DNA of 64,000 nt from Burkholderiales bacterium (GCA_035649495.1 DASRJL010000092.1:3588-67587), one strand, 5' to 3'. Positions 9,101 through 22,837 are shown, numbered from the stretch's first letter. The notes: generated by a model from the sequence alone, not told the origin. A program made the numbers and translations.

Positions 9101-12100
9101 CCGCACGGCCAACTCCTTCACGCCGGACTGCGTTCGGGCGGACAGGGCCAGCAGCCACGGGCCGGACGCATCCACGATCGGCTCACCGGCATCGTTGGCT
9201 TCCTGCCGTGGCGCCTCCTCGAGCACGACGTGAGCATTGGTGCCCGCGAATCCGAAGGAGCTCACCCCGGCGATTCGAGTGCGCGAATCAGCGCGCGCCC
9301 ACGGCAGCGTCTCCGCTGCGACCTTGACGGGCATGGACGCCCAGGGAATGTGGGGGTTGGGTACTTTGAAATGCAAGCTCCGCGGGATCGCGCCGTGCTG
9401 CAGTGCCAGAACCACCTTGATGAGTCCTGCGATCCCGGCGGCGGCCTCCAGGTGACCCATGTTGGACTTGACCGATCCGATGATGAGGGCATCGGCGGGC
9501 TCGCGTCCCCGCGCGAGGACCGCGTTGGCGGCTTGAACCTCGATCGGATCGCCGAGCACGGTTGCGGTGCCATGACATTCGAGGTAATGCACGCTCGCCG
9601 GCTCGATGCCTGCAACGCTCAAGGCGTCGGCGATGACGCGCGTCTGCGAGGGACCGCTCGGGGCGGTGAGTCCGCTGCTGCGTCCGTCCTGGTTGACCGC
9701 GCTGCCCCGGATCACCGCCAGGATGCGGTCCCCATCGCGGCGCGCATCGCTCAGGCGTTTGAGGACGACTATCCCGCAGCCTTCGCTGCGCACATAACCA
9801 TCAGCCGACGCATCGAACGTCCTGCACCGGCCGTCGGGGCTGAGCAGTCGCGCCTTGCAGAACGCCACGGTAAGCTCCGGGCGCAGGATCGCGTTGACCC
9901 CGCCGGCCAACGCAATCTCGCACTCTCCCTGGCGCAGGCTTTGCACGGCCTGATGCACGGCCACCAGCGACGAGCTGCACGCCGTGTCCACGGCAACGCA
10001 GGGTCCCTGCAGGCCGAGCGCGAAGGATAGCCGCCCGACGGCTGCGCTGTGGGCGTTGCCCGTGGCCATGAACGCGTCGGTCGTTTCGGGGCCCCGGCCG
10101 GTCAGGATCCGCTCGTAGTCGCCGGTGGAAAGGCCCATGAAGACCCCGGCGGGTCTGCCGTCGAGCCGGCCGGGTGGGATACCCGCGTGCTCCAGCGCGA
10201 GCCATGCGACCTCAAGCAGGTGCCGATGCTGCGGGTCCATGCTGGTTGCTTCCCGCGGCGAGATATCGAAAAACGCCGCATCGAAGCCTTCGATGTCGTC
10301 GATGAAACCGCCGAACCGGGTGTTCATCTTGCCCACGGCACCAGCGTCCGGATCGAAGTAGGCTTCGATATTCCAGCGCTCCGGGGGCACCTCCCGGATC
10401 GCGTCGCGTCCCTCTTCCAGCAGCCGCCAGAATTCATCGGCATCGGCGGCGCCGGGAAAGCGGCAGGCCAAGCCGACGACAGCTACCGGTTCATCCGGCA
10501 GCCGATCCGCTCGCGCTGGCACGGGCGATCGCGCCGGTTCTCCGAACAGAACGTCCTCCAGGTAACGGGCAAGCGCTTCGATATTGGGCTGGTCGAACAG
10601 GAGCGTCGCGGGCAGGCTGACGTTGTTTCCGATCGCGTCCTGCAAGCGGTTGACGAGGGCGACGGCTCCAACCGAGTCGAGTCCCAATCGCTCGAAGCCG
10701 GTGCGCGGATCGGGCAACGCAGCGAGTTCCAGCGCGCGGGCGATTTCTCCCTGCACATGGGCGACGAGCACGCGGTGGCGGTCCGCCCGGGGCAGGGCAC
10801 GCAGCAGTTCGATCAGGCCTGCGACTGCCGCCGGGGCCGGACTGTCGCGCTCCTCGCTCGACTTCGCACGCCATTCCGAGAGCAACGCCAGACCGCCGGA
10901 CAGGTGCTCCAGGCGGCACGCATAGCGCATGATCTTGCCGCTCGAGGTTTTCGGAAGCCGGCCTGGCTGCACGAGCCCGAGCCAATGTACGGCAACGCCG
11001 AACTGCTCTCCAATCGCGGCGCGAACAGCCTCGAACACCTCATCCGAACTGATCCGCTGACGGCCCGAGCGCTTCACCTCCAACGCGATGCCCAGTTCCT
11101 CGCGGTCCTCGACCTCCAGGGGAAAAGCGGCACAGGCGTCGATCTGCAGTGCCTCATGGCTATGCTGCGCGGCCAGCTCGATATCCTGCGGATACAGATT
11201 GCGGCCGCGAATGATGATCATGTCCTTGAGTCGGCCGGTGACGTACAACTCACCATTGAGCAGGAACCCCAGATCGCCGGTTCGCAGGTAGGACTGTTCC
11301 CCTTCTCCGGCAATGTGCGCGTTGAAGGTTGCTTCGGTTTCATCCGGCCGTTTCCAGTAACCGCGGGCAACGCTGGGGCCTGAAACCCAGATCTCGCCGA
11401 CCCTGCTCTCGGGAAGACGCTGCAGGGTTTCGGGATCCGCGATGGCGACTTCCATGCTGCCGCCCATGATTCCGGAACTAACCAGGCGGATCGCCAGCGG
11501 CTCCTCGGGCGCGCAGGTTTCGGCTGCACCATGGTCGAGCCTGTCACGCCGGAAGCAGGTTACTACGGGGTCTTGGTCCAACCGGCCTGCAGTCGTGCAA
11601 AGCGTCGTTTCCGCCATGCCATAACATGGCAGGTGCGTGCGGCGGCGGAAACCATAAGGCTCGAAGGTCTCGCTGAAGCGGTCGAGCGTGTCCGCTCGAA
11701 CGGGTTCAGCGCCATTGATGGTCATCTCCCACGAACTGAGATCGAGCCCTTCGCGCTGACTGGGCGTGGTCCCTCTTACGCACAGGTCATACGCGAAATT
11801 GGGCGCGCTCGACCCGGTACCCCGGTAGTTGCTGATAGCCCTCAACCATCGGATCGGGCTTTGCAGGAACGCTGCCGGCGACATGACGACCGTCAACGCG
11901 CCGCAGAACGTAGGCCCCACGAGGCCCGCGATCAGGCCCATGTCGTGGAAAAATGGCTGCCAGCTGACCTCGGTCGAATGCACGTTGCACCGGGAGACCT
12001 CGCGCGCGTACTCGCACTGATGCAACAGATTGCCGTGGGTGATCATTACGCCCTTGGGGCTGCCGGTAGACCCCGAGGTATATTGAAGGTGTGCCACGGA

Positions 12101-12601
12101 CTCCGGTTCGATATACGTTGCCCGCCAGTCCTCTGACCGGTCGGCAAGTGCGTCGGTCGCCAGGACTTGCAGACCGCGGTCTCCGAGGCCGCGCGAGAGC
12201 TGTTCGGAGTCGGCAAGCACGCAAAGCGCGGCTCCCGGCGCGCAATCTTCCAGCATGGTCAACAGCCGGGGATCGGTGCGCCGGGGATGAGGCGGATAGG
12301 CCGGGACGGCAATCGCGCCCGCGTACAGGCAGCCAAGAAACCCGACGATGAAATCCAGTCCCGCGCGATAGGTCAGTATTACCGGTTTGCCGGCGAGTTC
12401 GCGCTCTTGCAGCCAGGCGGCCACCGAGCGGGCCTGGCGATCCAGTTCTCCGTAGGTGAGACGTGCGGATTCACGCTCGCCGTCCGCCAGGAAAATGAAT
12501 GCCGTGCGTTCGCTCTGGTGCTCGCCTCTCCAGTGCAGTACCGAATTGAAGGTACCCCACTCCCCAAGCTCCCGGCCCTCGAACTGGTCCATGTCGCGCA
12601 A
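119..12601 (-). CDS. Giant FAAL-initiated type I polyketide synthase (4160 aa): FAAL-ACP-KS-AT-KR-ACP-KS-AT-KR-ACP-tandem GNAT/FemAB-like C-terminal domain; no DH, ER or TE domain
   Basis: Single uninterrupted ORF. FAAL signatures are LTYGELD, GLDFIVGFLGCLYAGAIAVPAYPP, YTSGSTGSPKGV and PKTSSGKI. There are two KS (DTACSSSL, HGT, KSNxGH), two AT (GHSAGE, GHSVGE), two KR (YLITGGxGxLG, YSAAN) and three carrier domains (LGLDSV, LGMNSI, VGLDSL). No HxxxGxxxxP dehydratase motif was seen. Confidence 0.95.
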   Translation of the reverse strand: MRDMDQFEGRELGEWGTFNSVLHWRGEHQSERTAFIFLADGERESARLTYGELDRQARSVAAWLQERELAGKPVILTYRAGLDFIVGFLGCLYAGAIAVPAYPPHPRRTDPRLLTMLEDCAPGAALCVLADSEQLSRGLGDRGLQVLATDALADRSEDWRATYIEPESVAHLQYTSGSTGSPKGVMITHGNLLHQCEYAREVSRCNVHSTEVSWQPFFHDMGLIAGLVGPTFCGALTVVMSPAAFLQSPIRWLRAISNYRGTGSSAPNFAYDLCVRGTTPSQREGLDLSSWEMTINGAEPVRADTLDRFSETFEPYGFRRRTHLPCYGMAETTLCTTAGRLDQDPVVTCFRRDRLDHGAAETCAPEEPLAIRLVSSGIMGGSMEVAIADPETLQRLPESRVGEIWVSGPSVARGYWKRPDETEATFNAHIAGEGEQSYLRTGDLGFLLNGELYVTGRLKDMIIIRGRNLYPQDIELAAQHSHEALQIDACAAFPLEVEDREELGIALEVKRSGRQRISSDEVFEAVRAAIGEQFGVAVHWLGLVQPGRLPKTSSGKIMRYACRLEHLSGGLALLSEWRAKSSEERDSPAPAAVAGLIELLRALPRADRHRVLVAHVQGEIARALELAALPDPRTGFERLGLDSVGAVALVNRLQDAIGNNVSLPATLLFDQPNIEALARYLEDVLFGEPARSPVPARADRLPDEPVAVVGLACRFPGAADADEFWRLLEEGRDAIREVPPERWNIEAYFDPDAGAVGKMNTRFGGFIDDIEGFDAAFFDISPREATSMDPQHRHLLEVAWLALEHAGIPPGRLDGRPAGVFMGLSTGDYERILTGRGPETTDAFMATGNAHSAAVGRLSFALGLQGPCVAVDTACSSSLVAVHQAVQSLRQGECEIALAGGVNAILRPELTVAFCKARLLSPDGRCRTFDASADGYVRSEGCGIVVLKRLSDARRDGDRILAVIRGSAVNQDGRSSGLTAPSGPSQTRVIADALSVAGIEPASVHYLECHGTATVLGDPIEVQAANAVLARGREPADALIIGSVKSNMGHLEAAAGIAGLIKVVLALQHGAIPRSLHFKVPNPHIPWASMPVKVAAETLPWARADSRTRIAGVSSFGFAGTNAHVVLEEAPRQEANDAGEPIVDASGPWLLALSARTQSGVKELAVRYAAWLRARDDAAISDICHAANTGRNHFEQRAVLICGSREAAQQKLGALAQGKPAPGLIAGTTLRERRPRVAFLFPGQGLQYTGMAQELYERAPAFRECLDRCAAAYDDFGREDGSPPLKSLMFDQDSAQLLKQTRYVQPALYALQVSLAALWQSWGVKPDAVLGHSAGEYAAACVAGVFRIEDGLRLIVDRARLMQTLPEGTMLSVTAPIETVEAAIAGDDTVHVSAYNGLNTVVSGPIGRLDVLAEQFDSKELYYAKLPASNAFHSPSIEPILDDYEACARRTEYSAPHTRLISTLTGKPLANDETPDAVYWRNQARQPVRFAQGIQALFEEVGCDIALELGPQAELVWLAQMSWRPEHPVLWASSLAKGRNAYEQVLTAAAQIHARGITLDFAVMAPGARARRTFALPSYPFQHERYWAGPMGGDIAAALGDSVYQVRWKASDGLPPSSAARQQRWLILAGEADLGAALEMALRARGQESVRSERIDGNATSPAAIRAMLETARRQAPVDHVVHVAGSFVDSDGGGDAVREAQSSGVMSALLVAQALISTREATRLWLVTRGVHAVLDDEQVEPTHAPVWGFGRTFAVEHPDRYGGLIDLALGRDSTATAADLAGALLRDDGGDQVAVRDGKSWTARFRREPVRDESPLRVRADAAYLITGGTGALGLMLARHLAGHGARQIVLTSRSGGNEAAGAVIKALADSGCRVDVYTADVSVHAEAERLMEQIRGAPGALPLRGIIHAAGVLEGAPIASQTRDLLASVMAPKVWGAWNLHHLACRHKLELDFFVLFSSAASLLGLRGHGNYSAANAYLDSLAHYRRGKGLPAVAINWGPWAEDGMATRMEAERWEEMGTHLIRPKLALRAFDLLAGSGAAQVCVQPMNVARWATLARAGRLPPILLRFLEELFLLAGVEGDIAGDSARRGAKRGPGELVRRLAALGPAERREALETHMRGRVGAVLGLTPESVDPEAGFFDLGMNSIMAVELRSTLQADIGDTVELQAAIIFNHPTVRRIAAYLLTSLSPGEERAPVPVRILDSSEAQAKALSCDATGLTQAIDSAVSEVLDPQRWSADLDESEENRFNRKALAAILSLQSEVDRLRSRTVEPVAVIGLSCRYPGANDPEAFWRIFDEGRDEITEIPASRWDAATHYDADPDMPGKMNTRWGGFLSDVEMFDAGFFGISPREALSLDPQQRILLEVAWEALENAGLAPRRLRGVRGGVFIGISVSDYAERVSRQDIGQLDAYVGTGNALCAAAGRLAFTLGWEGPALAIDTACSSSLVSLHEACASLRAGECDIALAGGVSLVLNPAVSMILSRAHMLSPDGRCKTFDTSANGYVRSEGCGVVALKRLRDAERDGDPILALIRGSAVNQDGRSSGLTVPNGVAQERVIADALANAGVAPADVQYLEAHGTGTPLGDPIEVQAADAVLSRGRDPSNPLLVGSAKSNIGHTETAAGIAGVIKVILALRHERIPKSLHYRTPNPHIPWEQLNLRIVTEPVPWPPGERRRIADVSSFGFVGTNAHVVIEEAPVRRVSARTGASIPERGACVLALSARTNGALGELAGRYLEALVRDSEVPLPDLCHAANTGRDHFEQRAALVFGDRERLTAQLTSLQQGLTDPGVHQGRLALRTTRHIAFLFTGQGSQFAGMGRDLYSTEPVFRDHFDRCAAEFSRLQGGAPGLHEIVFEDDGSGRLDETRYTQPALYALETSLAALLRSWGVEPDIVLGHSVGEYAAACTAGVFTLEEGMTLMVERGRLMQGLPSGGAMGAISVDAETVTAAFRAGTDVCVAAYNGAETVISGASEAVDELLQRFEADGQRCRRLATSGAFHSAWMDPILDPFKALASRISCQLPRKRLISNVSGDVVSDDTVLDATYWTEHIRKPVQFERSIRALQQLACDLVIELGPQPVLLGMGRRCWDSDREPVWVETLRRNRSDAEQIMTAVARIYAGGGDVDFAAVDAPWRDTRRRVSLPFYPFQRQRYWIDAPEPRVDAAPNPQSCLYHSVWEQKALPPAAREQRRATWLVLGDREGIAHELCRQLEGLGQRCVCAPADEPVPWSPQTLARLFDEANADESAPFGHVVHLRSLDGTRVESTDELRFAQKLGIESTLRLAQALIGSSWRGKLWVVTRGVHQVTGSDRIEPAQGPMWGLGRAIAMEQPELWGGLIDLPLDGDAAAVSSGLAQALQSGDDEDQIALRDGRRWVARVTRRQPPGAAQPLEVAADGTYLITGGLGDLGLQMARRLVARGARNLVLASRRMASDSAQETIADLVNNHDCTIRVIRADMSREADVSRLFGEIEASGLPVLKGIIHAAGVASLVPLENIDAEELERTLGPKVIGGWLLDRITRERGIKLSFFVCTASIASAWGAVSQAAYSAANAFLESLAESRKALGEAVTTISYGPWAGLGLMASSTEQGVAWLRRRGLSLLGPSLALDAMESLMVERVAHAAVADVNWATFRVHAEAQRPCPWLGRLGQTTETAGDDSASRRNASLAAELERLSSAPEVERIQLLATTIRTEISQVLGVHPQSLEDETSLFEVGLDSLMAVDLINRLRRRLRNTQFTPRLIYDNPTVSALAAAVGREFGAAPGSFASAEPPQGAGSASRAPDSSTPGDLAATEEAHYRTKNGPLYTYRRYRDGDRRGVLPSYAKCFGPTTASLLDAVFEWKYLDRPDQGPLVDILESSGEIVGWNGALPVRFKIEGETTPGVWSTDTHVAPDHRTVTGWFLHQVDENTPGIKLGMPNEAMYSIASAMESVIDLDQLQDLKTCLNLGGVLRARGANALLCWVSGLLYWPVPRAFDFGARLRADRSVTVSQIPHFDGRFDELWRTASRDYRGIMVRDQAFLSWRFDRCPNRGYTRYVADRDGKVVGYLVTRESRWKGGIRGRIVDYLVSREDTRAFDALVSAALRDFGARGAVSVACSVASTRTEHIRQLRRHGFLSSEPGARIVTSRGPHDAKLAAIRNWLFTYADGDIDYCEEESET
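122..1207 (-). other. PKS C-terminal ~360-aa tandem GNAT / FemAB-like acyltransferase-type domain occupying the position of a release (TE) domain
   Basis: Starts after a Pro/Ser/Ala-rich linker at HYRTKNGPLYTYRRYRDGD. The first half reads ILESSGEIVGWNGALPVRF...THVAPDHR. The second half reads MVRDQAFLSWRFDRCPNRGYTRYVADRDGKVVGYLVTRE...IVDYLVSREDTRAFDALVSAALRDFGARGAVSV...QLRRHGF, the pattern of GNAT-fold acyltransferases common in EPS loci. No GxSxG/His thioesterase signature. Assigned from motifs and memory only. Confidence 0.55.
1307..1549 (-). other. PKS domain: terminal ACP (Ser3720, codon 1442-1444)
   Basis: LFEVGLDSLMAVDLINRLRRRL. Confidence 0.85.
1847..2401 (-). other. PKS domain: KR2 catalytic subdomain (predicted A-type)
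   Basis: YLITGGLGDLGLQMARRL and YSAANAFLE. HAAGVASL replaces LDD. Trp is present in PKVIGGWLL. Confidence 0.8.
3257..4168 (-). other. PKS domain: AT2 (Ser2902, codon 3896-3898; specificity motif G-A-F-H at nt 3593-3604)
   Basis: FLFTGQGSQF, GHSVGEYAAACTAG, and GAFH in place of the canonical HAFH/YASH. Confidence 0.85.
4497..5776 (-). other. PKS domain: KS2 (active-site Cys2447, codon 5261-5263)
   Basis: EPVAVIGLSCRYPGA, DTACSSSLVSLH, EAHGTGTPLGDPIE, GSAKSNIGHTETAAG, FGFVGTNAHVVIEEAP. Confidence 0.9.
6017..6259 (-). other. PKS domain: ACP of module 1 (Ser2150, codon 6152-6154)
   Basis: FFDLGMNSIMAVELRSTL. Confidence 0.85.
6572..7126 (-). other. PKS domain: KR1 catalytic subdomain (predicted A-type)
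   Basis: YLITGGTGALGLMLARHL Rossmann motif and catalytic YSAANAYLD. HAAGVLEG occupies the LDD position. Trp is present in PKVWGAWNL. The roughly 280 aa upstream resemble only the KR structural subdomain. Confidence 0.8.
7967..8875 (-). other. PKS domain: AT1 (Ser1333, codon 8603-8605; specificity motif N-A-F-H at nt 8303-8314)
   Basis: FLFPGQGLQY, GHSAGEYAAACVAG, and NAFH where malonyl-specific ATs canonically carry HAFH. Confidence 0.85.
9212..10495 (-). other. PKS domain: KS1 (active-site Cys875, codon 9977-9979)
   Basis: EPVAVVGLACRFPGA start, DTACSSSLVAVH, ECHGTATVLGDPIE, GSVKSNMGHLEAAAG, ends FGFAGTNAHVVLEEAP. Confidence 0.9.
10532..10774 (-). other. PKS domain: loading ACP (Ser643, codon 10673-10675)
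   Basis: Motif FERLGLDSVGAVALVNRL located by reverse-complementing the DNA. Boundaries approximate. Confidence 0.85.
10832..12601 (-). other. PKS domain: fatty acyl-AMP ligase (FAAL) loading domain, approx aa 1-590
   Basis: Adenylation core motifs plus the FAAL-typical N-terminal block AGLDFIVGFLGCLYAGAIAVPAYPP. Followed directly by a carrier domain rather than a CoA-ligase terminus. Boundaries approximate. Confidence 0.85.
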
Positions 12602-14492: not shown

Positions 14493-15350
14493 ATGGAAAT
14501 AACAACAGTTGCAGTGGTCGGTGCGGGCACCATCGGCCGTGGTCTCGCCCTTGACCTGGCCATGCGCGAGTATCAAGTCATTCTGAACGATGTCGCCGAG
14601 GACCTGCTCGAACAAGCGAGAGCAGCGATGCGCTCCGACTTGAAGTCCTATCGCATGCTGGTGCCGGAGTACCGGGAAGTCGATGACGAGGCGCTGCTCG
14701 GTCGGATACGCTTCGCGGCCGACCTGGCGGCGGTGGCGGGCGCAGGTTTCGTCATCGAGAACATCATCGAGCAGTACGACGAGAAGGCGCGCCTGTATGC
14801 GCGGCTCTCGGCGATTTGCGGAAAGGAAACCGTTTACGGGGTGAACACGTCCTGCATTTCGATCACGAAGCTAGCCCAGCACGTGCCCGATCCGTCGAGG
14901 ATGATCGGCATGCACTTCATGAATCCGGTGCCGATGAAGAAATTCGTCGAGATGATCCGGGGCGAGCGCACGTCCGAGCAGACCGTCGAGACCGCGACCG
15001 CGCTGGTGACGCGGCTCGGAAAGGATCACGTGCTCGTCAAGGACTTTCCCGGTTTCGTGGCGAACCGCGTGATGATGCTGGCGGTCAACGAATGCGCGTT
15101 CATCGTTCAGGACGCCGTGGCAACACCAGCGGATGTGGACAAGGTTTTCAGGCTGGCGTTCGGCCACGGCATGGGGCCGCTGGCGACGGCCGATCTGATC
15201 GGCCTCGACACCGTACTGAATTCCATTCTGGTCCTTTTCGACGAATACAAGGACTCGAAATATCGTCCGTGTCCGCTCCTGCAGAAGATGGTAGATGCCG
15301 GGAAGCTGGGCAGGAAGAGCGGGCAGGGGTTCTTCAAATATTCCAGGTAG
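14493..15350 (+). CDS. 3-hydroxyacyl-CoA dehydrogenase family protein (FkbK/ZmaG-like step of hydroxymalonyl-ACP synthesis)
   Basis: N-terminal Rossmann VAVVGAGTIGRGLA and the HFMNPVP motif typical of 3-HADH. Positioned directly upstream of the FkbH-like gene. Confidence 0.8.
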   Translation: MEITTVAVVGAGTIGRGLALDLAMREYQVILNDVAEDLLEQARAAMRSDLKSYRMLVPEYREVDDEALLGRIRFAADLAAVAGAGFVIENIIEQYDEKARLYARLSAICGKETVYGVNTSCISITKLAQHVPDPSRMIGMHFMNPVPMKKFVEMIRGERTSEQTVETATALVTRLGKDHVLVKDFPGFVANRVMMLAVNECAFIVQDAVATPADVDKVFRLAFGHGMGPLATADLIGLDTVLNSILVLFDEYKDSKYRPCPLLQKMVDAGKLGRKSGQGFFKYSR

Positions 15351-15373
15351 CTGCGACGCGGCGGAGGGCGGGC

Positions 15374-16423
15374 ATGCAGGGTTCAACTGTGAAGTGCGTA
15401 GTGTGGGACCTCGACAATACGATCTGGGACGGCATTCTGATGGAGGATCCCGTCGTGCGCCTTAAGCCGCGCGTGCGCGACGTGCTCGATACGCTGGACC
15501 GACGCGGCATCCTGCATTCGATTGCGAGCCGTAACGATCGGGATCTGGCGCTGGCGAAACTGCGCGAGTTCGGAATTGCCGATTATTTTCTCTATCCGGA
15601 GATTCGCTGGGATGCCAAGTCCGCGTCCGTGACCAGGATCCAGAAGAACCTCAACGTCGGTTACGACACGATATTGTTCCTCGACGACCAGCCGTTCGAG
15701 CGCGACGAGGTCGCGAGTGTTCACGGCGAGATGTGGTGCCTCGACAGCTGCCGTTACCTCGACATCCTGGAGCATCCCCGCCTGCAGCCCAAGTACGTGA
15801 CCGACGAGTCGGCGATGCGCCGCCGCATGTATATCGAGGACATGGCGCGCCGCGAGGAGGAACAGGCGTACGCGGGGCCCAAGGAAAGCTTCCTGCGCCA
15901 GCTGAACATGGTGTTCGACATTGCCGAGGCGCAGGAGAGCGACCTGGTGCGGGCGGAAGAGCTGACCTACCGGACCAATCAGCTGAACGCCACCGGCGAG
16001 AGATATACCGTGGAGTCGCTGGATGCGATGCGGCGTGACCCACGGTATAAAATCCTCGTGTGCGAGCTAAAGGACAAATATGGCAGCCACGGCAAGATCG
16101 GGCTCGCGCTGATCGAGCAGTCGCCGCACACCTGGAACCTCAAGCTGATGCTGTTTTCTTGCCGCGTGCTTTCGACAGGTGTCGGAGCGGTGCTGCTGAC
16201 GTACCTGAGGAACGCGGCGCGGAATCACGGCATCCGGCTGCTCGCCGATTTCAGGGACACCGGCTACAATCGCATGATGCGGCTGTCCTATATGGTCGCC
16301 GGTTTTGCGGAAAAAGAGCAACGCGACGACGGACTCGTCGTGCTGGAAAACGATCTGAAGGACGTTCCGCACTTGCCGGACTTCCTCGAGATCCGGAGCA
16401 ACGTGAAGTGGAGCGCTTTGTGA
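15374..16423 (+). CDS. FkbH-like HAD-superfamily phosphatase/glyceryl-ACP loading enzyme
   Basis: HAD motif I VVWDLDNTIWDG, SRND, FLDDQPFERDEV, and a C-terminal GNAT-like half typical of the FkbH family. The in-frame upstream part of ORF 14816..16423 overlaps the previous gene, so I chose ATG 15374. Confidence 0.8.
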   Translation: MQGSTVKCVVWDLDNTIWDGILMEDPVVRLKPRVRDVLDTLDRRGILHSIASRNDRDLALAKLREFGIADYFLYPEIRWDAKSASVTRIQKNLNVGYDTILFLDDQPFERDEVASVHGEMWCLDSCRYLDILEHPRLQPKYVTDESAMRRRMYIEDMARREEEQAYAGPKESFLRQLNMVFDIAEAQESDLVRAEELTYRTNQLNATGERYTVESLDAMRRDPRYKILVCELKDKYGSHGKIGLALIEQSPHTWNLKLMLFSCRVLSTGVGAVLLTYLRNAARNHGIRLLADFRDTGYNRMMRLSYMVAGFAEKEQRDDGLVVLENDLKDVPHLPDFLEIRSNVKWSAL

Positions 16424-16671
16424 GAGAAAAGATCCGCGCGATGGTCGAGAGCAATCTCAACATCTTCCAATCCGACATTGTGTTCAGCGACGACGACAAT
16501 ATTTTCCGCAAGGGCTTCGTCGACTCGCTGTTCGCCGTCCAACTGATCGCTTATCTCGAGCAGGAATTCGGTATCAAGGTCGGCAACAAGGACCTCGACA
16601 TCAACAATTTCCACTCCGTGAGCAAGATGGTGAGCTTCGTCGAGCGCAAGAGCCAGGAGCGGGCCGGTTGA
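16420..16671 (+). CDS. Discrete acyl carrier protein (FkbJ/ZmaD-like)
   Basis: 83 aa with GFVDSLFAVQLIAYLEQEFG (DSL phosphopantetheine site). GTG start overlaps the FkbH stop (GTGA at 16420-16423), suggesting translational coupling. Confidence 0.75.
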   Translation: MREKIRAMVESNLNIFQSDIVFSDDDNIFRKGFVDSLFAVQLIAYLEQEFGIKVGNKDLDINNFHSVSKMVSFVERKSQERAG

Positions 16672-16681
16672 CGGTGGTCCG

Positions 16682-17827
16682 GTGAAGATCGGGCTGGATG
16701 AGCGCCAGGGCCGGATCGTAGACGAGGCGGCGGATTTTGCACGGACGGTGCTGAAACCGCGGGCGGGCAGCAGCGACGCGAGCGGTGTCTTTCCGCGGGA
16801 CGTACTGGCGCAGATGGCGGAGAGGGGCTACCTCGGTGCCACGCTGCCGCGTGAGCACGGCGGGCTCGGACTCGATCCGGTTGCGTACGGATTGCTGGTG
16901 GCAGCGGTGGAGAAGGGCGACTCCAGCGCGAGCCGGCTGTTGACGGCGCACGTCGCGCTGGTGGGCGAGACAATACTCAAGTGCGGCAGCGAGACCCAGA
17001 TCCGCAGGTGGCTACCGCGCCTGGCGCGCGGACAGACCCTCGGCGCGTTCTGCCTGACGGAACCCGAGCATGGGTCGGACGCGGCGGGCATCCAGACCGC
17101 GTACACAGTGCACGGTGACGCGTTCCGGTTGAACGGACGCAAGCGCTGGATCACGTTCTCCGGCATTGCGGACCTGCTGCTGGTGATGGCCCGCAGCGGC
17201 GAAGCCGTTTCCGCGTTCCTCGTGGAGCGTGACGCGGGCGGCCTATCTTTCGAGCCCCAGAGGGGCTTGATGGCTGGCCGGGCATGTCACATCGGCGAAG
17301 TCGTGCTGAACGATGTGGTCGTGGGGCAGGAAAGCCTGCTCGGCCAGGCCGGGCAGGGCTTCAGCTACGTGGCCAATACCGCTCTGGATCAGGGGCGCTA
17401 CTCGATTGCGTGGGGGGGGGTCGGATTGGCCGAAGCCGCGCTGGACGCAATGGTCGCCTATGCCCGGAACCGCAAGCAGTTTGGCGAGAGCATCGCCACC
17501 TTCCAGCTGGTTCGCGAAATGATCGCGGAGGCCGTGGCGCGGCTCTACGCCGCGAAGAGCCTGTGCTGCAGGGCAGGGGAAATGCGCCGGTCCGGCAGCC
17601 CGGAAGCAATCATCGAGACCACGATCGCGAAGCACTTTTCCGCCGGAGCGGCCTTCAAGACGGCATGCGACGCCGTGCAGGTTCACGGTGGAAATGGTAT
17701 CAGCAGCGAGTACCCCGTCGAGCGTTACATGCGCGAGGCCAAGGTCCTCGAGATCATCGAGGGCACGTCCCAGATCCAGCAGATCGTAATCTCGATGCAT
17801 GGGCTCCGACGTTACGGGCGCGCCTGA
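16682..17827 (+). CDS. Acyl-CoA (acyl-ACP) dehydrogenase family flavoprotein (FkbI/ZmaE-like)
   Basis: 381 aa. Typical ACAD blocks include GAFCLTEPEHGSDAAG, the C-terminal QVHGGNGISSEYPVERYMREAKVLEIIEGTSQIQ and the catalytic Glu context. Confidence 0.85.
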   Translation: MKIGLDERQGRIVDEAADFARTVLKPRAGSSDASGVFPRDVLAQMAERGYLGATLPREHGGLGLDPVAYGLLVAAVEKGDSSASRLLTAHVALVGETILKCGSETQIRRWLPRLARGQTLGAFCLTEPEHGSDAAGIQTAYTVHGDAFRLNGRKRWITFSGIADLLLVMARSGEAVSAFLVERDAGGLSFEPQRGLMAGRACHIGEVVLNDVVVGQESLLGQAGQGFSYVANTALDQGRYSIAWGGVGLAEAALDAMVAYARNRKQFGESIATFQLVREMIAEAVARLYAAKSLCCRAGEMRRSGSPEAIIETTIAKHFSAGAAFKTACDAVQVHGGNGISSEYPVERYMREAKVLEIIEGTSQIQQIVISMHGLRRYGRA

Positions 17828-17858
17828 GGCGTGCGTGCCGTCGCTCCGGCTCACGCGC

Positions 17859-18530
17859 ATGCCGGACGACACATATTGCCGGTTGTCGGGGCTTTTCGAC
17901 GATCCACGCGTGCACGTCCTGACGTGCACGATCAACGCTGCGGCGGTCGGTCTGCTTTCGGAAAAGGAGACCGCTGCGATGGCGGGTTTCGTTGAAAAAC
18001 GGCGCCGCGAGTACGCTACGGCGCGCGCGCTTGCGCGGGCAGGCCTGGAGCGTTTCTTCGGTGTGCGCGATTTCGACCTGCTGAATGCCGACGATCGGTC
18101 CCCGATCTGGCCGGAAGGAATCTGCGGAAGTATTGCTCACAGCGACACCCGTGCATGGGTCGCGCTCGTCGAAGCGGGCTATGGCACCATAGGTATCGAC
18201 GGAGAAGCGCGCACGGAGCTCGGGCGGGACCTGTGGCGCCTCACCTTGCGGGACGAGGAAAGGGCTGACGTCGAAGCACTTCCTGCGTCGAGCCGGGGCA
18301 GGCGCGCGCTCGCCCTGTTCTCGGCCAAGGAGGCGCTCTACAAGGCGCAGTACCCGCGGTCTGGTTTGTTCATGCAATATATGGCGTTGCGAGTTGAATC
18401 CGATGATGTAGGCGCACTACGCTGCATATTTCAGCAGGATGTCGGTCCGTTCCCCAGGGGTTTCGTCGCGCGCGGACGGAGTCTGGACGGCAACGAACTG
18501 GTTACCGCGGTCTGGATACCTGCGACATGA
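17859..18530 (+). CDS. 4'-phosphopantetheinyl transferase, EntD/Sfp-type
   Basis: RRREYATARALAR, WPEGICGSIAHSD, IGIDGE, and FSAKEALYKA (the W/FSxKEAxxK motif). Start uncertain: the ORF opens at 17799 and overlaps the ACAD stop. Confidence 0.75.
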   Translation: MPDDTYCRLSGLFDDPRVHVLTCTINAAAVGLLSEKETAAMAGFVEKRRREYATARALARAGLERFFGVRDFDLLNADDRSPIWPEGICGSIAHSDTRAWVALVEAGYGTIGIDGEARTELGRDLWRLTLRDEERADVEALPASSRGRRALALFSAKEALYKAQYPRSGLFMQYMALRVESDDVGALRCIFQQDVGPFPRGFVARGRSLDGNELVTAVWIPAT

Positions 18531-18633: not shown

Positions 18634-19422
18634 GTGAGCGCCACCGGCAGGCGAGATCGTTGGATTTATTGCCGCGTGGCGCGACCGGAGTGCCGGCTTC
18701 GCCTGTTCTGCTTACCGTTCGCCGGCGGTGGGGCGTCTGCCTTCAACGCGTGGCCCGGCGCTTTCCCGGATACGGTCGAACTGCATGCGGTGCAATTGCC
18801 GGGACGTGAGTCGCGGTATGGCGAAGCGTCGTTGAGCGACGTGCACGAGGCGGCCGGACTGATCGCCGACGCCATGCAGCCCTACCTAGACCGCCCGTAC
18901 GTGGTGTATGGGTACAGTATGGGCGCCCTGATCTCGTTCGAGGTGATTCGCGAGCTTCGCGGGCGGGGCGCGCCGCTGCCCGGCGGGCTGTTCGTGGGGG
19001 CGCGGCGTGCCCCGCACCTTGCTGCGAATTCGCGGCCGCTCGCCGAACTGCCGCGCGAGGAGTTTCTCGAGCAGGTGCGCCGCTATTACGATCCGCCGGT
19101 GGCGCTGTGGCAGGACCCGGACCTGCTCGGTCTCATTCTGCCGGTGCTGCGCGCGGACCTGTCCCTGTGCGAGCGTTACGTTTACCGGCCGGGGCCGCCC
19201 TTCGATTTCTGGATTCAAGCTTTTGGCGGATCGCAGGACCGTAGCGCCCCGCTACCGGTGGTGCAGGCGTGGCACGAGCAGACCACGGGAGAGTTCGCGC
19301 TGGAAGCGTTCGAAGGCGCGCACTTTTTCGTCAATACTCATCTGCGGAAAATGCAGCAGATCATGTTCTCCCGGCTCGAACCCTTAATGTCCGGAGCCGC
19401 ATCGTCGTTATTCCGCCGTTGA
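18634..19422 (+). CDS. Type II (discrete) thioesterase
   Basis: RLFCLPFAGGGASAF, nucleophile elbow GYSMGALISFE, and C-terminal GAHFF (GxH). Confidence 0.85.
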   Translation: MSATGRRDRWIYCRVARPECRLRLFCLPFAGGGASAFNAWPGAFPDTVELHAVQLPGRESRYGEASLSDVHEAAGLIADAMQPYLDRPYVVYGYSMGALISFEVIRELRGRGAPLPGGLFVGARRAPHLAANSRPLAELPREEFLEQVRRYYDPPVALWQDPDLLGLILPVLRADLSLCERYVYRPGPPFDFWIQAFGGSQDRSAPLPVVQAWHEQTTGEFALEAFEGAHFFVNTHLRKMQQIMFSRLEPLMSGAASSLFRR

Positions 19423-19514: not shown

Positions 19515-20951
19515 ATGTTCCAGGTCATCGCAAGAAATTTTTCGATCGTTACCGCGGCCCAGTTCATCGGTGCCGGGATCGCGTTTCTGTGGGTCGCGTT
19601 CGCAGCACGGCAACTCGGCCCGGCGCAGTTCGGTACCTTCCTGCTGGTCGTGGCCTACGTGCGCGTCGTCTCCGTGACCATCAACGCGGGGGTCGGGCCA
19701 ATTACCTTTCGCGAGCTGGCGCGCCGGAGGGATGACGCGCTGTCGCTGTTCGAGGACATCGTCTGCATGCGCCTGGTGCTGGGGCTTGCCGGGTACGTCG
19801 GCCTGATGGCCACGCTCTTCCTGTTTCAGCAGGACCTGGATCTGCTGGCGCTGGTGGCCATCTCGGCAATTACGCTTCTGCTCGATCCCCTCAGCGAAAC
19901 CTACGCCGCGTACTACCTGGCGCACGAGCGCGCGGAGGTCCCGAGCATATATACGGTCACTTCCATAGTTCTCTCATCCACGGCGAGCGCCGCGCTCCTG
20001 CTTGCCGGATACGGGCTCATGGCGGTCGTCGTGCTGGAAACCGTGTCTGCCTTCGTGATGACCCTTATCTGGACCAGCCTGTTTCGTGCCCGGAACTTCC
20101 GTTTTTCGATCCGGGCGCGGCCGGCGGAGTGGTGGCGTCTGTTTCTCCTGATTGTCCCGTTTGCTCCGATACACCTCAGCAACCAGCTGAACCGCGCGCT
20201 CAACGTGATTCTGCTTGGCCGCCTGAGCGGGCCGATTCCAATGCAGGAGGCGGTGGGATATTACGGACCCCCGCAGTCTGTCACCAACACCGTTGTGATG
20301 CTGGTCATGACCCTGCGCCGGGTCATGATACCGTCCGTAACCGTGCGGCTGAGCCAGGGACTTACCGTGACGCGCGAGCTGGATCTCGGCGTGAAACTGG
20401 TCATGGCCGTTTTTGCCCTGCCGCTGCTCCTGGGCAGTTCATTCATGGCGCCGGAGGTGATCTCGCTCCTGTTCGGGGAGCACTATGCACCCTCGGCGAT
20501 GGCTCTGGTAATACTCGGATGGGCTGGCGCGTTGCAGATCGCCGCGCTGGTTCCGGAGACGTTCCTCTTCGCTCATCCGAACCACAGATTGCAGGAATAC
20601 GTTGCCGGTGCGTTCGCGTCCGTGCTGCTCAACGCGGCTGTTTGCGTACTCCTTATCGGCGACTACGGTTTTCTCGGCGCTGCAGTCGGAGCGGTAGCTG
20701 GCCGGATCCTGTATCTGGTGTACGTGGTCCACTACTGCCGGCGCCAGTTGGGCGGGCAGGTTCTGCGTGTGCAGACGTTCGGGGACTCGACGCTGCTGCT
20801 GCTCGCCGCGTTCGGTCTGTGGCTCGTGACGTTCCAGGTGATCGGCAACGCCTGGATCGCCGGCGCGGCTGCGATTCTTCTCACGCTGCCGCTCATCGCG
20901 GGATTTGTCCTGTATCTCCGCCCGCAATTCATCGCCCGCCAGCAGGCTTGA
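19515..20951 (+). CDS. MOP-superfamily flippase (Wzx / polysaccharide-biosynthesis-protein family), multi-pass membrane protein
   Basis: 478 aa and almost entirely hydrophobic (about 12-14 predicted helices by eye). The N-terminus NFSIVTAAQFIGAGIAFLWVAFAARQLGPAQFG is typical of oligosaccharide flippases. Confidence 0.7.
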   Translation: MFQVIARNFSIVTAAQFIGAGIAFLWVAFAARQLGPAQFGTFLLVVAYVRVVSVTINAGVGPITFRELARRRDDALSLFEDIVCMRLVLGLAGYVGLMATLFLFQQDLDLLALVAISAITLLLDPLSETYAAYYLAHERAEVPSIYTVTSIVLSSTASAALLLAGYGLMAVVVLETVSAFVMTLIWTSLFRARNFRFSIRARPAEWWRLFLLIVPFAPIHLSNQLNRALNVILLGRLSGPIPMQEAVGYYGPPQSVTNTVVMLVMTLRRVMIPSVTVRLSQGLTVTRELDLGVKLVMAVFALPLLLGSSFMAPEVISLLFGEHYAPSAMALVILGWAGALQIAALVPETFLFAHPNHRLQEYVAGAFASVLLNAAVCVLLIGDYGFLGAAVGAVAGRILYLVYVVHYCRRQLGGQVLRVQTFGDSTLLLLAAFGLWLVTFQVIGNAWIAGAAAILLTLPLIAGFVLYLRPQFIARQQA

Positions 20952-21862: not shown

Positions 21863-22696
21863 AGTTGAACAGAAGGGCGGTTTTCTCGGTGGTTGAAATG
21901 TGTCAGTGGGACCGCAGCGTCTCGGCTCACGTGCCAGCCGCATACCGTGTTTCACGCTTCCGGTGCGCTTAGAGCTTGCGGCGAGCTGCGAAGTGGCAAC
22001 TGCTGAACATCATGATTTTCGTTCCTCGCATTTTTACACTATACCCTCCCGTTCGGCTAGAGCCGAAGACGCACACACTGGCCGACTGGGCAATAATTCA
22101 CATGTTCAACGTTGACGCGAATGGTCCCTCAAGGCGAGGGACGCTGCGCTACATTCGAAATTTTCCATGAATCGTGGTAGACCGCGAGAATGGTCGAGAT
22201 GCGCATCGAGCGTTCGCAGGTGCTTGACGCTCGATACCTCACGCCCAGTTCTCTCCCGAAGGGCGAGGGGAGAAGATCGCGAAATGCTTCGTCAAGCATT
22301 TTCACGAATGCTTAATAAAACGCTCCCTACCAGCGATGAGGTGAGCCGCCAGGAATGTCGCGCGAGGCGGGGCCGCTGGCAGTCGTTGCGGCAGAAAGGC
22401 TGAGAGGCGCTACCGCGACTCGATGTGCGCAACAGGACGTGCGGGAGCATAGTGCCACGCGGCAAGTTGACGCGTATGCGATCCATCGGTTTCTACTTCC
22501 CGTCCCGCGCCACCGTGGCGGAGGCCGAGGGTTGTCAGGAAATTTAACGAATCCGCGTGGTCGTTAAATATATGATTTTCTGATTAAATATCCATGACAG
22601 CTGGGCTTATGCAACGGAATGAGTGCCTCCGACTCGAATTATTGTCGAGAAAATTTACACTATTCCAGTAGACGAGCTGGCATACTCACCCAATTG

Positions 22697-22737: not shown

Positions 22738-22837
22738 TGTGTCTGCGGCGAATCCTAGAAACAATCAGTCGAAGAGCTGAGAAAACTGATATCGGCAGGG
22801 CGCGGACAGGCGGATTGAATCCAGGGAGCGCTTGATT

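What the first reader, a model, noticed from the sequence alone, without database searches (positions are those of the whole stretch)
14493..17827. Complete FkbH/ACP/3-HADH/ACAD cassette without an O-methyltransferase, paired with cis-AT domains carrying non-canonical NAFH/GAFH motifs
The four consecutive genes are a 3-hydroxyacyl-CoA dehydrogenase, an FkbH-like HAD enzyme, an ACP whose start overlaps the FkbH stop, and an acyl-CoA dehydrogenase. These are the established set for converting a glycolytic intermediate into ACP-linked hydroxymalonate (fkbGHIJK, zmaD/E/G/N). No FkbG-type methyltransferase is present in the island, so the predicted product is hydroxymalonyl-ACP rather than methoxymalonyl-ACP.

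Both in-line AT domains deviate from the malonyl (HAFH) and methylmalonyl (YASH) codes at the diagnostic position: N1430-AFH (nt 8303-8314) and G3000-AFH (nt 3593-3604). That fits one or both modules taking an ACP-linked extender, which would add 2-hydroxyl groups to the chain.
Basis: partly seen in the sequence, partly recalled or inferred. Interest (0 to 1): 0.6.

Follow-up and report, generated by a model that had tools for sequence, protein, structure and literature searches.

The report
Hydroxymalonyl-ACP cassette beside a lipid PKS
Four tightly packed genes that make a rare hydroxylated polyketide building block sit next to a fatty-acid-primed polyketide synthase in an uncultured gammaproteobacterium. 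Probably only the first of the synthase's two loading domains uses that block, so this is a new example of a known pathway, not a new kind.

Summary
The window encodes a 3-hydroxyacyl-CoA dehydrogenase (14493-15350), an FkbH (15374-16423), an ACP (16420-16671, GTGA overlap with the FkbH stop) and an acyl-CoA dehydrogenase (16682-17827). Each is 45-53% identical to ZmaG, ZmaN, ZmaD and ZmaE of the zwittermicin hydroxymalonyl-ACP pathway. No FkbG-family methyltransferase is in the island or the genome.

NAFH and GAFH lie exactly where stated, but they do not mean the same thing.
- **AT2:** GAFH is the motif of the malonyl-CoA FabD of S. coelicolor. 12 of 13 orthologues of AT2 read HAFH and all keep the basic "RXR" residue. 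AT2 is an ordinary malonyl-CoA domain.
- **AT1:** This is a distinct, conserved lineage (13/13). It has Tyr instead of Arg/Lys at the FabD-R190 position (1 of 386 background ATs), never has His in the YASH motif, and reads NAAH in three orthologues (ZmaA reads GAAH). A related synthase has AT1 as its only AT and still carries the cassette.
- **Against AT1:** It lacks the GYS signature of ZmaA/ZmaF and descends from malonyl-type ATs.

Best reading: hydroxymalonyl-ACP enters once, at module 1. This gives a vicinal-diol acyl chain that is later transferred and probably sulfated. It is a new member of a known kind.

The parts
14493..15350 (+). 3-hydroxyacyl-CoA dehydrogenase homologue (ZmaG/FkbK role: oxidises glyceryl-ACP to 2-hydroxy-3-oxopropionyl-ACP)
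   Evidence: PF02737 and PF00725. 48% identical to ZmaG over 278 aa.
15374..16423 (+). FkbH-like HAD-IIIC enzyme (ZmaN role: loads a glyceryl unit from 1,3-bisphosphoglycerate onto the ACP)
   Evidence: TIGR01686 253.7 bits, cut-off 146.65. 53% identical to ZmaN. D12/D14/T16, D104/D105 and C263 are conserved in at least 98% of 122 homologues, ZmaN included. It is the only FkbH in the genome.
16420..16671 (+). Discrete acyl carrier protein of the cassette (ZmaD role)
   Evidence: PF00550. DSL motif with Ser36, and GTGA start/stop overlap with FkbH. 45% identical to ZmaD.
16682..17827 (+). Acyl-CoA dehydrogenase homologue (ZmaE/FkbI role: oxidises to hydroxymalonyl-ACP)
   Evidence: PF02771, PF02770 and PF00441. 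51% identity and 368 bits to ZmaE, against 242 bits to ZmaI of the aminomalonyl branch and 255 bits to the best PDB ACAD.
17799..18530 (+). Sfp-type 4'-phosphopantetheinyl transferase
   Evidence: PF17837 and PF01648. Conserved next to the cassette in L003 and in the P0008 contig.
18634..19422 (+). Type II thioesterase
   Evidence: PF00975. A thioesterase also flanks the cassette in L003, L009, L010 and the P0008 contig and in the butyrolactol cluster.
119..12601 (-). PKS: FAAL-ACP-KS-AT1-KR-ACP-KS-AT2-KR-ACP-C-terminal tandem-GNAT-like domain
   Evidence: Pfam domains. Weak GNAT hits on the last 370 aa.
7922..8914 (-). AT1 domain (module 1), the candidate hydroxymalonyl-ACP acyltransferase
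   Evidence: GQGLQ 8861-8875, GHSAGE 8594-8611, YYA 8330-8338, NAFH 8303-8314. Forms a monophyletic AT1 clade of 13 orthologues.
8303..8338 (-). AT1 'RXR(X)5YASH' stretch, reading YYAKLPASNAFH
   Evidence: Translation. Tyr at position 1 in 13 of 13 orthologues against 1 of 386 background ATs.
3197..4189 (-). AT2 domain (module 2), a canonical malonyl-CoA type
   Evidence: GQGSQ 4148-4162, GHSVGE 3887-3904, RCR 3620-3628, GAFH 3593-3604. Orthologues read HAFH in 12 of 13 cases.
19515..20951 (+). Wzx/MOP-type flippase (context)
   Evidence: PF01943 and PF13440. Conserved in L003, L011 and the P0008 contig.
21005..21955 (-). Sulfotransferase (context)
   Evidence: PF17784. Sulfotransferases accompany the cassette in L003, L009, L010 and the P0008 contig.
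24081..26947 (-). CysN-CysC fusion and CysD, the PAPS supply (context)
   Evidence: PF00009, PF01583 and PF01507.

Best explanation
The four genes form a ZmaG/ZmaN/ZmaD/ZmaE-type pathway.
1. FkbH takes a glyceryl unit from 1,3-bisphosphoglycerate and puts it on the discrete ACP.
2. The 3-hydroxyacyl-CoA dehydrogenase homologue and then the acyl-CoA dehydrogenase homologue oxidise C3. The product is hydroxymalonyl-ACP.
3. No O-methyltransferase follows, so the unit stays hydroxylated.

The divergently transcribed synthase (FAAL-ACP-KS-AT1-KR-ACP-KS-AT2-KR-ACP-tandem GNAT) most likely uses this unit once. AT1 of module 1 would move hydroxymalonate from the discrete ACP to the module ACP. This gives a 2,3-dihydroxyacyl intermediate after KR1. 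AT2 then adds an ordinary malonyl-CoA unit, and KR2 gives a 3,4,5-trihydroxyacyl chain. The C-terminal GNAT-like domain would hand that chain to an acceptor. The neighbouring sulfotransferase, PAPS genes and flippase suggest a sulfated envelope lipid.

What is shown: the identity, integrity and conservation of the cassette; the absence of FkbG; and the sequence differences between AT1 and AT2.

What is inferred: the ACP-bound product, the choice of AT1, and everything downstream.
For: **The cassette**
- The family and Pfam hits are clear.
- Its proteins are 48%, 53%, 45% and 51% identical to ZmaG, ZmaN, ZmaD and ZmaE. Those come from the zwittermicin cluster on pBMB422, recognised by its annotated zmaJ and its gene order.
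- The ACAD is nearer to ZmaE than to ZmaI, 368 against 242 bits.
- The FkbH catalytic residues are conserved.
- The same four genes stand together in 59 of 80 related genome loci.
- The FkbH lies in a six-member clade (SH-aLRT 98) whose members all have the partner genes in their own locus except L009, which has no ACAD there. A 61%-identical ACAD lies on L097 from the same sample.
- No PF01596 match exists in the genome and no methyltransferase among the scanned island ORFs.

**Link between cassette and synthase**
- The genome holds one FkbH, one PKS and only three AT domains: AT1, AT2 and FabD. No trans-AT exists.
- The PKS family and the cassette are adjacent in the window, the P0008 contig, L003, L011 and, by matching contig length and source, P0125/P0032.
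- In two apparently PKS-less cassette loci, a family PKS lies on another contig of the same sample or assembly with the best-matching tetranucleotide profile. L009 pairs with L097 (r = 0.91), and L097 carries a 61%-identical cassette-type ACAD beside the PKS. L010 pairs with L100 (r = 0.98).

**AT1**
- In all 13 orthologues it has Tyr at the position of E. coli FabD R190 and a non-basic residue two places on. It never has His at YASH position 1, and it has Ile/Val for the Met after HSxx. AT2 has Arg/Lys at the first position in 13 of 13.
- PMC4207774 Table 3 lists a basic residue at that position in 5 of 5 CoA-using ATs, and Met or Ile in the two ACP-using ATs.
- The background is 313 of 386 basic and 1 of 386 Tyr.
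- Three orthologues read NAAH, compared with ZmaA GAAH.
- The related synthase of G001 is FAAL-ACP-KS-AT1-KR-ACP-C-A-PCP-GNAT. AT1 is its only PKS AT, and the cassette is next door.
- A discrete variant (L004/L005) joins a stand-alone homologue of the C-terminal domain, a KR, a KS, an ACP, the cassette and a FabH-like enzyme, with no AT at all. This fits direct use of the cassette ACP as extender carrier.
Against: - AT1 keeps GHS, not the GYS of ZmaA and ZmaF. GYS marks 22 of 70 ATs found within 10 kb of other FkbH cassettes and 0 of 386 background ATs.
- AT1 keeps Phe in NAFH in this genome, which is usually read as malonyl-type.
- AT1 is nested with AT2 inside malonyl-type ATs and not with ZmaA.
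- A Tyr at RXR position 1 also occurs in presumed methylmalonyl-CoA ATs (YAR...YASH) of a Streptomyces plasmid.
- The RXR rule rests on few characterised enzymes.
- The assignment of L009/L097 and L010/L100 to single genomes rests on composition only.
- No genome with this PKS family but without the cassette was found to serve as a control.
- FkbI (1R2J) is not among the best PDB hits of the ACAD.
Confidence: 0.55

Rival explanations
1. Both ATs load malonyl-CoA and the cassette serves something other than chain extension. Its ACP-bound C3 acid (glyceryl, 2-hydroxy-3-oxopropionyl or hydroxymalonyl) could be a donor or acceptor for the tandem-GNAT domain or another transferase. Alternatively the thioesterase could release it to become a head group or glycan substituent that is then sulfated.
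For: - Cassettes with a thioesterase, sulfotransferases and glycosyltransferases but no PKS within 10 kb exist among close relatives (L009, L010).
- A stand-alone homologue of the C-terminal domain sits in one operon with the cassette (L004/L005).
- Neither AT has the GYS signature, and both are of malonyl-type descent.
That note is unchecked.
Against: - Both PKS-less loci have a PKS of the same family in the same sample or assembly with matching composition. In one, the missing ACAD sits beside that PKS.
- The GNAT-like domain always follows a carrier domain in cis. A stand-alone homologue occurs with an ACP but no cassette (L114). So the domain is not tied to the cassette.
- This rival leaves the conserved peculiarities of AT1 unexplained.
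- The HADH and ACAD make a malonate-type unit whose known use is decarboxylative condensation.
Confidence: 0.2
2. One reading: AT2, alone or together with AT1, also takes hydroxymalonyl-ACP, so that two 2-hydroxyl groups are introduced.
For: GAFH departs from HAFH and shares its Gly with ZmaA GAAH and ZmaF GPFH.
Against: - GAFH is the motif of the malonyl-CoA FabD of S. coelicolor.
- AT2 has RCR(X)5, GHSVGE, GQGSQ and ETRYTQPALYA, all canonical for malonyl-CoA.
- 12 of 13 AT2 orthologues read HAFH, although at least four of them accompany the same cassette.
- AT2 scores 228-229 bits to other PKS ATs of the PDB (6iyo, the GfsA chimera) but 173 bits to ZmaA.
Confidence: 0.08
3. The extender is methoxymalonyl-ACP after all, methylated by an unlinked methyltransferase that is not of the FkbG type.
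For: The genome is 92.5% complete in 238 contigs. Other methyltransferase families were not searched genome-wide.
Against: No PF01596 anywhere in the genome. No methyltransferase among the scanned island ORFs, nor in the related clusters L003 and the P0008 contig.
Confidence: 0.05
4. The FkbH/ACP pair works as in tetronate-type pathways. Glyceryl-ACP is the end product and is condensed with the polyketide chain to form a ring.
For: One related operon (L004/L005) contains a weak FabH-like protein after the cassette.
Against: - The window shows no FabH-like gene among the island ORFs scanned.
- HADH and ACAD are translationally packed around FkbH and the ACP, and are conserved.
- The FkbH is of the short ZmaN type and 53% identical to ZmaN.
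Confidence: 0.03

Closest known systems
Zwittermicin A hydroxymalonyl-ACP pathway (ZmaN, ZmaD, ZmaG, ZmaE) with the cis-AT of ZmaA, Bacillus cereus/thuringiensis
   Same: The same four enzyme types, at 45-53% identity each. No O-methyltransferase. A discrete ACP whose load must be moved to a module ACP by an in-line AT. In AT1, a non-basic residue at the FabD-R190 position.
   Different: - The genes are contiguous and translationally coupled here, but scattered over about 20 kb in zma.
- AT1 keeps GHS where ZmaA has GYS, and reads NAFH rather than GAAH.
- The host assembly line is a FAAL-primed, fully KR-reducing lipid PKS that ends in a tandem GNAT, not an NRPS/PKS aminopolyol line.
- There is no aminomalonyl branch.
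Butyrolactol A cluster, Streptomyces (hydroxymalonyl-ACP extender giving a contiguous polyol)
   Same: Zma-type cassette, no O-methyltransferase and an adjacent thioesterase. The glycolate units give vicinal hydroxyls after ketoreduction (PMC5355916).
   Different: Actinomycete, with gene order HADH-ACP-ACAD-FkbH and four hydroxymalonyl modules. Here the order is HADH-FkbH-ACP-ACAD and probably only one module uses the unit.
FkbGHIJK methoxymalonyl-ACP pathway (FK520 and related macrolides)
   Same: Homologous FkbH, ACP, HADH and ACAD steps.
   Different: No FkbG here. The window's ACAD scores 148 bits to FkbI (1R2J) but 368 bits to ZmaE.
Sulfated glyceric acid caps of cyanobacterial peptides (FkbH-like plus sulfotransferase domains, e.g. 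the cyanopeptolin OciA). Recalled from memory, not tested here.
   Same: FkbH chemistry occurs together with a sulfotransferase, as in the window, L003, L009, L010 and the P0008 contig.
   Different: Those systems stop at glycerate and have no HADH or ACAD. There the FkbH is a domain of an NRPS.

Membership tests
Hydroxymalonyl-ACP biosynthesis cassette (ZmaN/D/G/E type) | FkbH-like HAD-IIIC enzyme with a DxDxT phosphatase motif and a C-terminal catalytic Cys | tested here: met
   TIGR01686 253.7 bits against a cut-off of 146.65. D12, D14, T16, D104, D105 and C263 are conserved in at least 98% of 122 homologues, ZmaN included. 53% identical to ZmaN.
Hydroxymalonyl-ACP biosynthesis cassette (ZmaN/D/G/E type) | Dedicated discrete ACP with a phosphopantetheine serine | tested here: met
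   PF00550. DSL motif with Ser36 and start/stop overlap with FkbH. 45% identical to ZmaD. A PPTase gene lies 130 nt downstream of the cassette's last gene region.
Hydroxymalonyl-ACP biosynthesis cassette (ZmaN/D/G/E type) | 3-hydroxyacyl-CoA dehydrogenase homologue (ZmaG/FkbK) | tested here: met
   PF02737 and PF00725. 48% identical to ZmaG.
Hydroxymalonyl-ACP biosynthesis cassette (ZmaN/D/G/E type) | Acyl-CoA dehydrogenase homologue of the ZmaE/FkbI type | tested here: met
   51% identity and 368 bits to ZmaE, against 242 bits to ZmaI and 255 bits to the best PDB ACAD.
Hydroxymalonyl-ACP biosynthesis cassette (ZmaN/D/G/E type) | No FkbG-type O-methyltransferase (this separates hydroxy- from methoxymalonyl) | tested here: met
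   PF01596 finds nothing in the whole genome but is found in 13 of 14 control genomes. No methyltransferase among the scanned island ORFs.
Hydroxymalonyl-ACP biosynthesis cassette (ZmaN/D/G/E type) | Hydroxymalonyl thioester actually formed on the ACP | not testable with these tools
   Needs in vitro reconstitution and intact-protein MS.
ATs specific for ACP-linked extender units (ZmaA-AT, ZmaF, methoxymalonyl ATs) | Non-basic, hydrophobic residue at the FabD-R190 position (first residue of 'RXR') | tested here: met
   - AT1 meets it: Tyr in 13 of 13 orthologues.
- AT2 does not: Arg/Lys in 13 of 13.
- The rule comes from PMC4207774 Table 3.
- Background: 313 of 386 basic and 1 of 386 Tyr.
ATs specific for ACP-linked extender units (ZmaA-AT, ZmaF, methoxymalonyl ATs) | GYSxG in place of GHSxG (ZmaA, ZmaF) | tested here: not met
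   AT1 reads GHSAGE and AT2 reads GHSVGE. GYS occurs in 22 of 70 ATs near other FkbH cassettes and in 0 of 386 background ATs. By the ZmaA paper's description this signature is not shared by actinomycete methoxymalonyl ATs.
ATs specific for ACP-linked extender units (ZmaA-AT, ZmaF, methoxymalonyl ATs) | Altered YASH motif lacking the bulky Phe/Ser pattern (ZmaA reads GAAH) | tested here: inconclusive
   AT1 reads NAFH here and NAAH in three orthologues. Its first residue varies among N, T, S, A and R but is never H. AT2's GAFH equals the motif of S. coelicolor FabD, a malonyl-CoA enzyme.
ATs specific for ACP-linked extender units (ZmaA-AT, ZmaF, methoxymalonyl ATs) | Phylogenetic grouping with characterised ACP-extender ATs | tested here: not met
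   AT1 and AT2 form their own clade (SH-aLRT 100) within HAFH-type ATs. The test is weak, because ZmaA pairs with the malonyl-CoA AT of ZmaK in the same tree.
Methoxymalonyl-ACP pathway (FkbGHIJK) | FkbG O-methyltransferase | tested here: not met
Tetronate-type glyceryl-ACP set (FkbH, ACP, FabH-like condensing enzyme) | FabH-like enzyme beside FkbH and the ACP, with no HADH or ACAD | tested here: not met
   No ACP_syn_III hit among the island ORFs scanned. HADH and ACAD are present. No labelled tetronate FkbH was available for a tree.

The most novel reading that the evidence does not exclude
AT1 represents an independent, second origin of selectivity for an ACP-linked extender. It would be a GHS-type acyltransferase that arose by duplication of the malonyl-CoA AT inside this PKS family and swapped the CoA-binding Arg for Tyr. 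With it, a family of FAAL-primed PKS and PKS-NRPS lines in uncultured Gammaproteobacteria would build vicinal-diol or vicinal-triol acyl chains. A tandem-GNAT domain would transfer these chains to an envelope acceptor, where they are then sulfated. That would be an undescribed class of sulfated polyhydroxy lipids.
Probability: 0.4. Interest if true: 0.55.

Novelty: new member of a known kind. Interest (0 to 1): 0.38.

Why it matters
A 2017 paper listed hydroxymalonyl-ACP as an extender only for Bacillus, Paenibacillus, Xenorhabdus and Streptomyces (PMC5355916). This locus, and at least a dozen metagenomic relatives, place the same cassette beside a fatty-acid-primed lipid synthase in uncultured Gammaproteobacteria.

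The two ATs descend from one ancestor within a single protein, and only one carries the carrier-recognition change. This gives a clean natural pair for asking which residues switch an AT from a CoA-linked to an ACP-linked substrate. That question is open for PKS engineering.

The practical correction is that GAFH should not be read as a sign of an unusual extender.

Tried and rejected
- **FkbH against PDB.** Only a HAD-domain hit (3SLR) came back, with no solved FkbH to compare.
- **ACAD against PDB.** Generic ACADs outrank FkbI, so PDB ranking says nothing about the role. Comparison with ZmaE and ZmaI was informative instead.
- **Class-level search for a natural control.** I searched 400 genomes for AT1 orthologues, looking for a PKS without a cassette. 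Nothing was above 47% identity, so no control was found.
- **Context of P0149 and P0122.** DNA of the P0008 contig was not available.
- **L098 and L099.** The contigs end at the PKS, so they are uninformative about the cassette.
- **Strict fixed differences between AT1 and AT2.** Only 7 were found, none in the known motifs. The informative differences are class-level, such as Tyr against Arg/Lys.
- **Search for stand-alone relatives of the C-terminal domain.** This returned mostly PKS fragments and one exosortase-linked homologue without a cassette.
- **Tetronate reading.** Rejected on gene content.
- **PKS-less use of the cassette.** Weakened by the paired contigs.
- **Literature search.** Searching for FkbH, sulfotransferase, fatty acyl-AMP ligase and hydroxymalonyl together found no description of this cluster type.

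Full report
**1. The observation**

The plus strand from 14493 to 17827 carries four intact ORFs in the stated order.
- **HADH, 14493-15350.** Pfam gives 3HCDH_N and 3HCDH.
- **FkbH, 15374-16423.** NCBIfam gives the FkbH domain model TIGR01686 at 253.7 bits, cut-off 146.65. The most likely start is ATG 15374, behind a GGAGG.
- **ACP, 16420-16671.** Pfam gives PP-binding. The FkbH TGA stop overlaps the ACP GTG start as GTGA, and the ACP has its DSL serine at residue 36.
- **ACAD, 16682-17827.** Pfam gives the three ACAD domains.

NAFH is at 8303-8314 (N1430) and GAFH at 3593-3604 (G3000) of the minus-strand PKS 119-12601.

No FkbG-family methyltransferase (PF01596) is found in the whole 5.9-Mb, 92.5%-complete assembly, while the same search finds one in 13 of 14 control genomes. 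None of the island ORFs I scanned is a methyltransferase.

**2. What the cassette is**

A tblastn against plasmids found the zwittermicin A cluster on B. thuringiensis plasmid pBMB422, which carries an annotated zmaJ. I named the other zma genes from gene order and my knowledge of the published cluster.

| Window protein | Zma counterpart | Identity |
|---|---|---|
| HADH | ZmaG | 48% |
| FkbH | ZmaN | 53% |
| ACP | ZmaD | 45% |
| ACAD | ZmaE | 51% |

- The ACAD scores 368 bits to ZmaE (hydroxymalonyl branch). It scores 242 bits to ZmaI (aminomalonyl branch) and 255 bits to the best PDB ACAD.
- The HAD motifs and the C-terminal Cys263 of FkbH are conserved in at least 98% of 122 homologues, ZmaN included.
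- Among 80 related loci from species-representative genomes, 59 carry all four genes together.
- The window's FkbH sits in a six-member clade (SH-aLRT 98). All members have the partner genes in their own locus except L009, whose ACAD is on L097 of the same sample.
- The literature draws the same conclusion from the same evidence for butyrolactol: Zma homologues plus no O-methyltransferase means hydroxymalonyl-ACP. There a thioesterase also sits beside the cassette (PMC5355916).

I take hydroxymalonyl-ACP as the product with about 85% confidence.

**3. The surroundings**

The PKS reads FAAL-ACP-KS-AT-KR-ACP-KS-AT-KR-ACP plus about 370 aa with weak GNAT hits.
- **Downstream of the cassette:** a PPTase, a type II thioesterase, a Wzx-type flippase, a sulfotransferase, a PEP-CTERM protein, VanZ, CysNC and CysD.
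- **Upstream of the window on the same contig:** a Bac_transf phosphoglycosyl transferase and a radical SAM protein.
- **Elsewhere:** the same set recurs in the P0008 contig and L003, and partly in L011, a Gammaproteobacteria MAG.
- **Genome census:** one FkbH, one PKS and only three AT domains (AT1, AT2 and FabD). No trans-AT is available.

**4. The two ATs are not alike**

The ZmaA-AT structure paper gives the reference motifs (PMC4207774).

| AT | Substrate | GHSxG | RXR | YASH |
|---|---|---|---|---|
| ZmaA | hydroxymalonyl-ACP | GYSFG | MCM | GAAH |
| ZmaF | aminomalonyl-ACP | GYSLG | IAI | GPFH |
| S. coelicolor FabD | malonyl-CoA | GHSVG | KVV | GAFH |

All five CoA-using ATs in that paper's Table 3 have Arg or Lys at the first RXR position, which corresponds to E. 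coli FabD R190.

I collected 13 PKSs of the window's family from metagenomes and one MAG, and compared their ATs.
- **AT2** has Arg/Lys at that position in 13 of 13 and reads HAFH in 12 of 13. GAFH occurs only in the window. AT2 also has a GQG(S/A)Q motif where one could be read (11 of 13), a TxYTQPAL motif and GHS(V/L)GE. It is a canonical malonyl-CoA AT with one trivial substitution.
- **AT1** has Tyr at that position in 13 of 13 and A, S, Q, T or M two residues on.
- Its YASH first residue is N, T, S, A or R but never H, and three orthologues read NAAH.
- It has Ile/Val instead of the Met after HSxx.
- In the window's subclade it also reads GxG(L/M)Q and QTR(Y/H/F)(V/I).

Among 386 ATs of 108 other modular PKSs, 313 are basic and 1 is Tyr at that position. 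NAFH, GAFH, NAAH and GYS are all absent.

In trees, AT1 is monophyletic (SH-aLRT 100, stem 0.40). It is nested with AT2 in one family clade (SH-aLRT 100) inside HAFH-type ATs. AT1 therefore arose from a malonyl-type AT within this PKS family.

That does not argue against a changed substrate, because ZmaA-AT and the malonyl-CoA AT of ZmaK are also sisters in the same tree.

**5. Is the cassette tied to the PKS?**
- In G001 (the genome of L011) the family PKS is FAAL-ACP-KS-AT1-KR-ACP-C-A-PCP-GNAT. AT1 is its only PKS AT and the cassette lies next door.
- Two close cassette loci (L009, L010) have a thioesterase, sulfotransferases and glycosyltransferases but no PKS within 10 kb. This suggested a non-PKS use.
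- L097, from the same sample as L009, carries a family PKS with a PPTase and an ACAD 61% identical to the window's. That ACAD is exactly the gene L009 lacks.
- L100, from the same assembly as L010, carries another family PKS.
- Each pair is the other's best tetranucleotide match, r = 0.91 and r = 0.98.
- L004/L005 is a discrete version: a stand-alone homologue of the C-terminal domain, then KR, KS, ACP, the cassette and a FabH-like protein, with no AT. That fits hydroxymalonyl-ACP serving a free KS directly.

**6. Weaknesses**
- AT1 lacks the GYS signature found in ZmaA and ZmaF. GYS marks 22 of 70 ATs near other cassettes.
- AT1 keeps Phe in NAFH here.
- Tyr at the first RXR position also occurs in presumed methylmalonyl-CoA ATs of a Streptomyces plasmid.
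- The RXR rule rests on few enzymes.
- I found no family PKS in a genome that lacks the cassette.
- The pairing of contigs rests on composition only.
- An earlier, unchecked note of this scan reports PKS-free FkbH cassettes coupled to tandem GNATs. This keeps alive the rival that the cassette's ACP feeds the GNAT directly.
- Against that rival, the GNAT-like domain here always follows a carrier domain in cis. A stand-alone homologue (L114) sits with an exosortase and an ACP but no cassette.

**7. Verdict**
- The gene set is a known kind in a new host and context.
- The AT argument needs correcting. GAFH carries no signal. AT1 is the only credible entry point, at moderate confidence.
- The expected chemistry is one glycolate unit at the first extension. 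With both KRs this gives a 3,4,5-trihydroxyacyl chain.
- Transfer by the GNAT-like domain and sulfation of the product are inferences from the neighbouring genes.

Noticed in passing
window 12602-14492: The DesA-like desaturase gene (13045-13902) and about 590 bp of non-coding DNA lie between the PKS and the cassette in this genome only. In L003 and the P0008 contig the HADH gene starts 150-360 bp from the divergent PKS start.
   Followed up: partly
contig upstream of the window (L113:369-3575): A Bac_transf/CoA_binding_3 phosphoglycosyl transferase and a 534-aa radical SAM protein lie just beyond the PKS 3' end. The same two genes accompany the cluster in the P0008 contig, so the island probably extends beyond window position 1.
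   Followed up: partly
L096:2223-13247 (genome G001, same locus as L011): A sister cluster is a PKS-NRPS hybrid: FAAL-ACP-KS-AT1-KR-ACP-C-A-PCP-tandem GNAT. It has one PKS module only, and the same cassette and flippase.
   Followed up: yes
L004/L005:5623-14502: A discrete 'type II' version. A stand-alone homologue (25% identity) of the PKS C-terminal domain is followed by KR, KS, ACP, HADH, FkbH, ACP, ACAD, a weak FabH-like protein and a radical SAM-like protein. There is no AT.
   Followed up: partly
L012-L090 (ATs within 10 kb of FkbH cassettes): 22 of 70 such ATs read GYSxGE like ZmaA and ZmaF, against 0 of 386 ATs of other modular PKSs. Most of them (18) still read HAFH and form one clade of N-terminal or stand-alone ATs. 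GYS looks like a better marker of cassette-associated ATs than the YASH motif.
   Followed up: partly
L008 (Streptomyces genisteinicus plasmid NZ_CP060826.1, 338706-379713): A type I PKS cluster with HADH-ACP-ACAD-FkbH, a GYS-type AT inside a protein annotated as an FkbM-family methyltransferase, a sulfotransferase and cysC/cysD/cysN. This is a second, unrelated pairing of the cassette with sulfation.
   Followed up: no
L009 with L097, and L010 with L100: The cassette and the family PKS appear to be unlinked in two organisms. In one the ACAD and PPTase stay with the PKS while TE-HADH-FkbH-ACP sit in a glycan and sulfotransferase locus.
   Followed up: partly
L114:6038-12590: A stand-alone 374-aa homologue (27% identity) of the PKS C-terminal domain lies directly after exosortase EpsH, EpsI and a TPR protein, near a 90-aa ACP. 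The window itself encodes PEP-CTERM proteins (for example 22832-23608).
   Followed up: no
window 17799-17827: The annotated PPTase start overlaps the ACAD end by 29 nt. The true start may be further downstream, since homologues are 206-223 aa against 243 aa here.
   Followed up: no
L006/L007 (pBMB422): In the AT tree, ZmaA-AT (hydroxymalonyl-ACP) and ZmaK-AT (malonyl-CoA) are sisters (SH-aLRT 100). Both have unusual amino-acid composition, so the pairing may be partly compositional.
   Followed up: no
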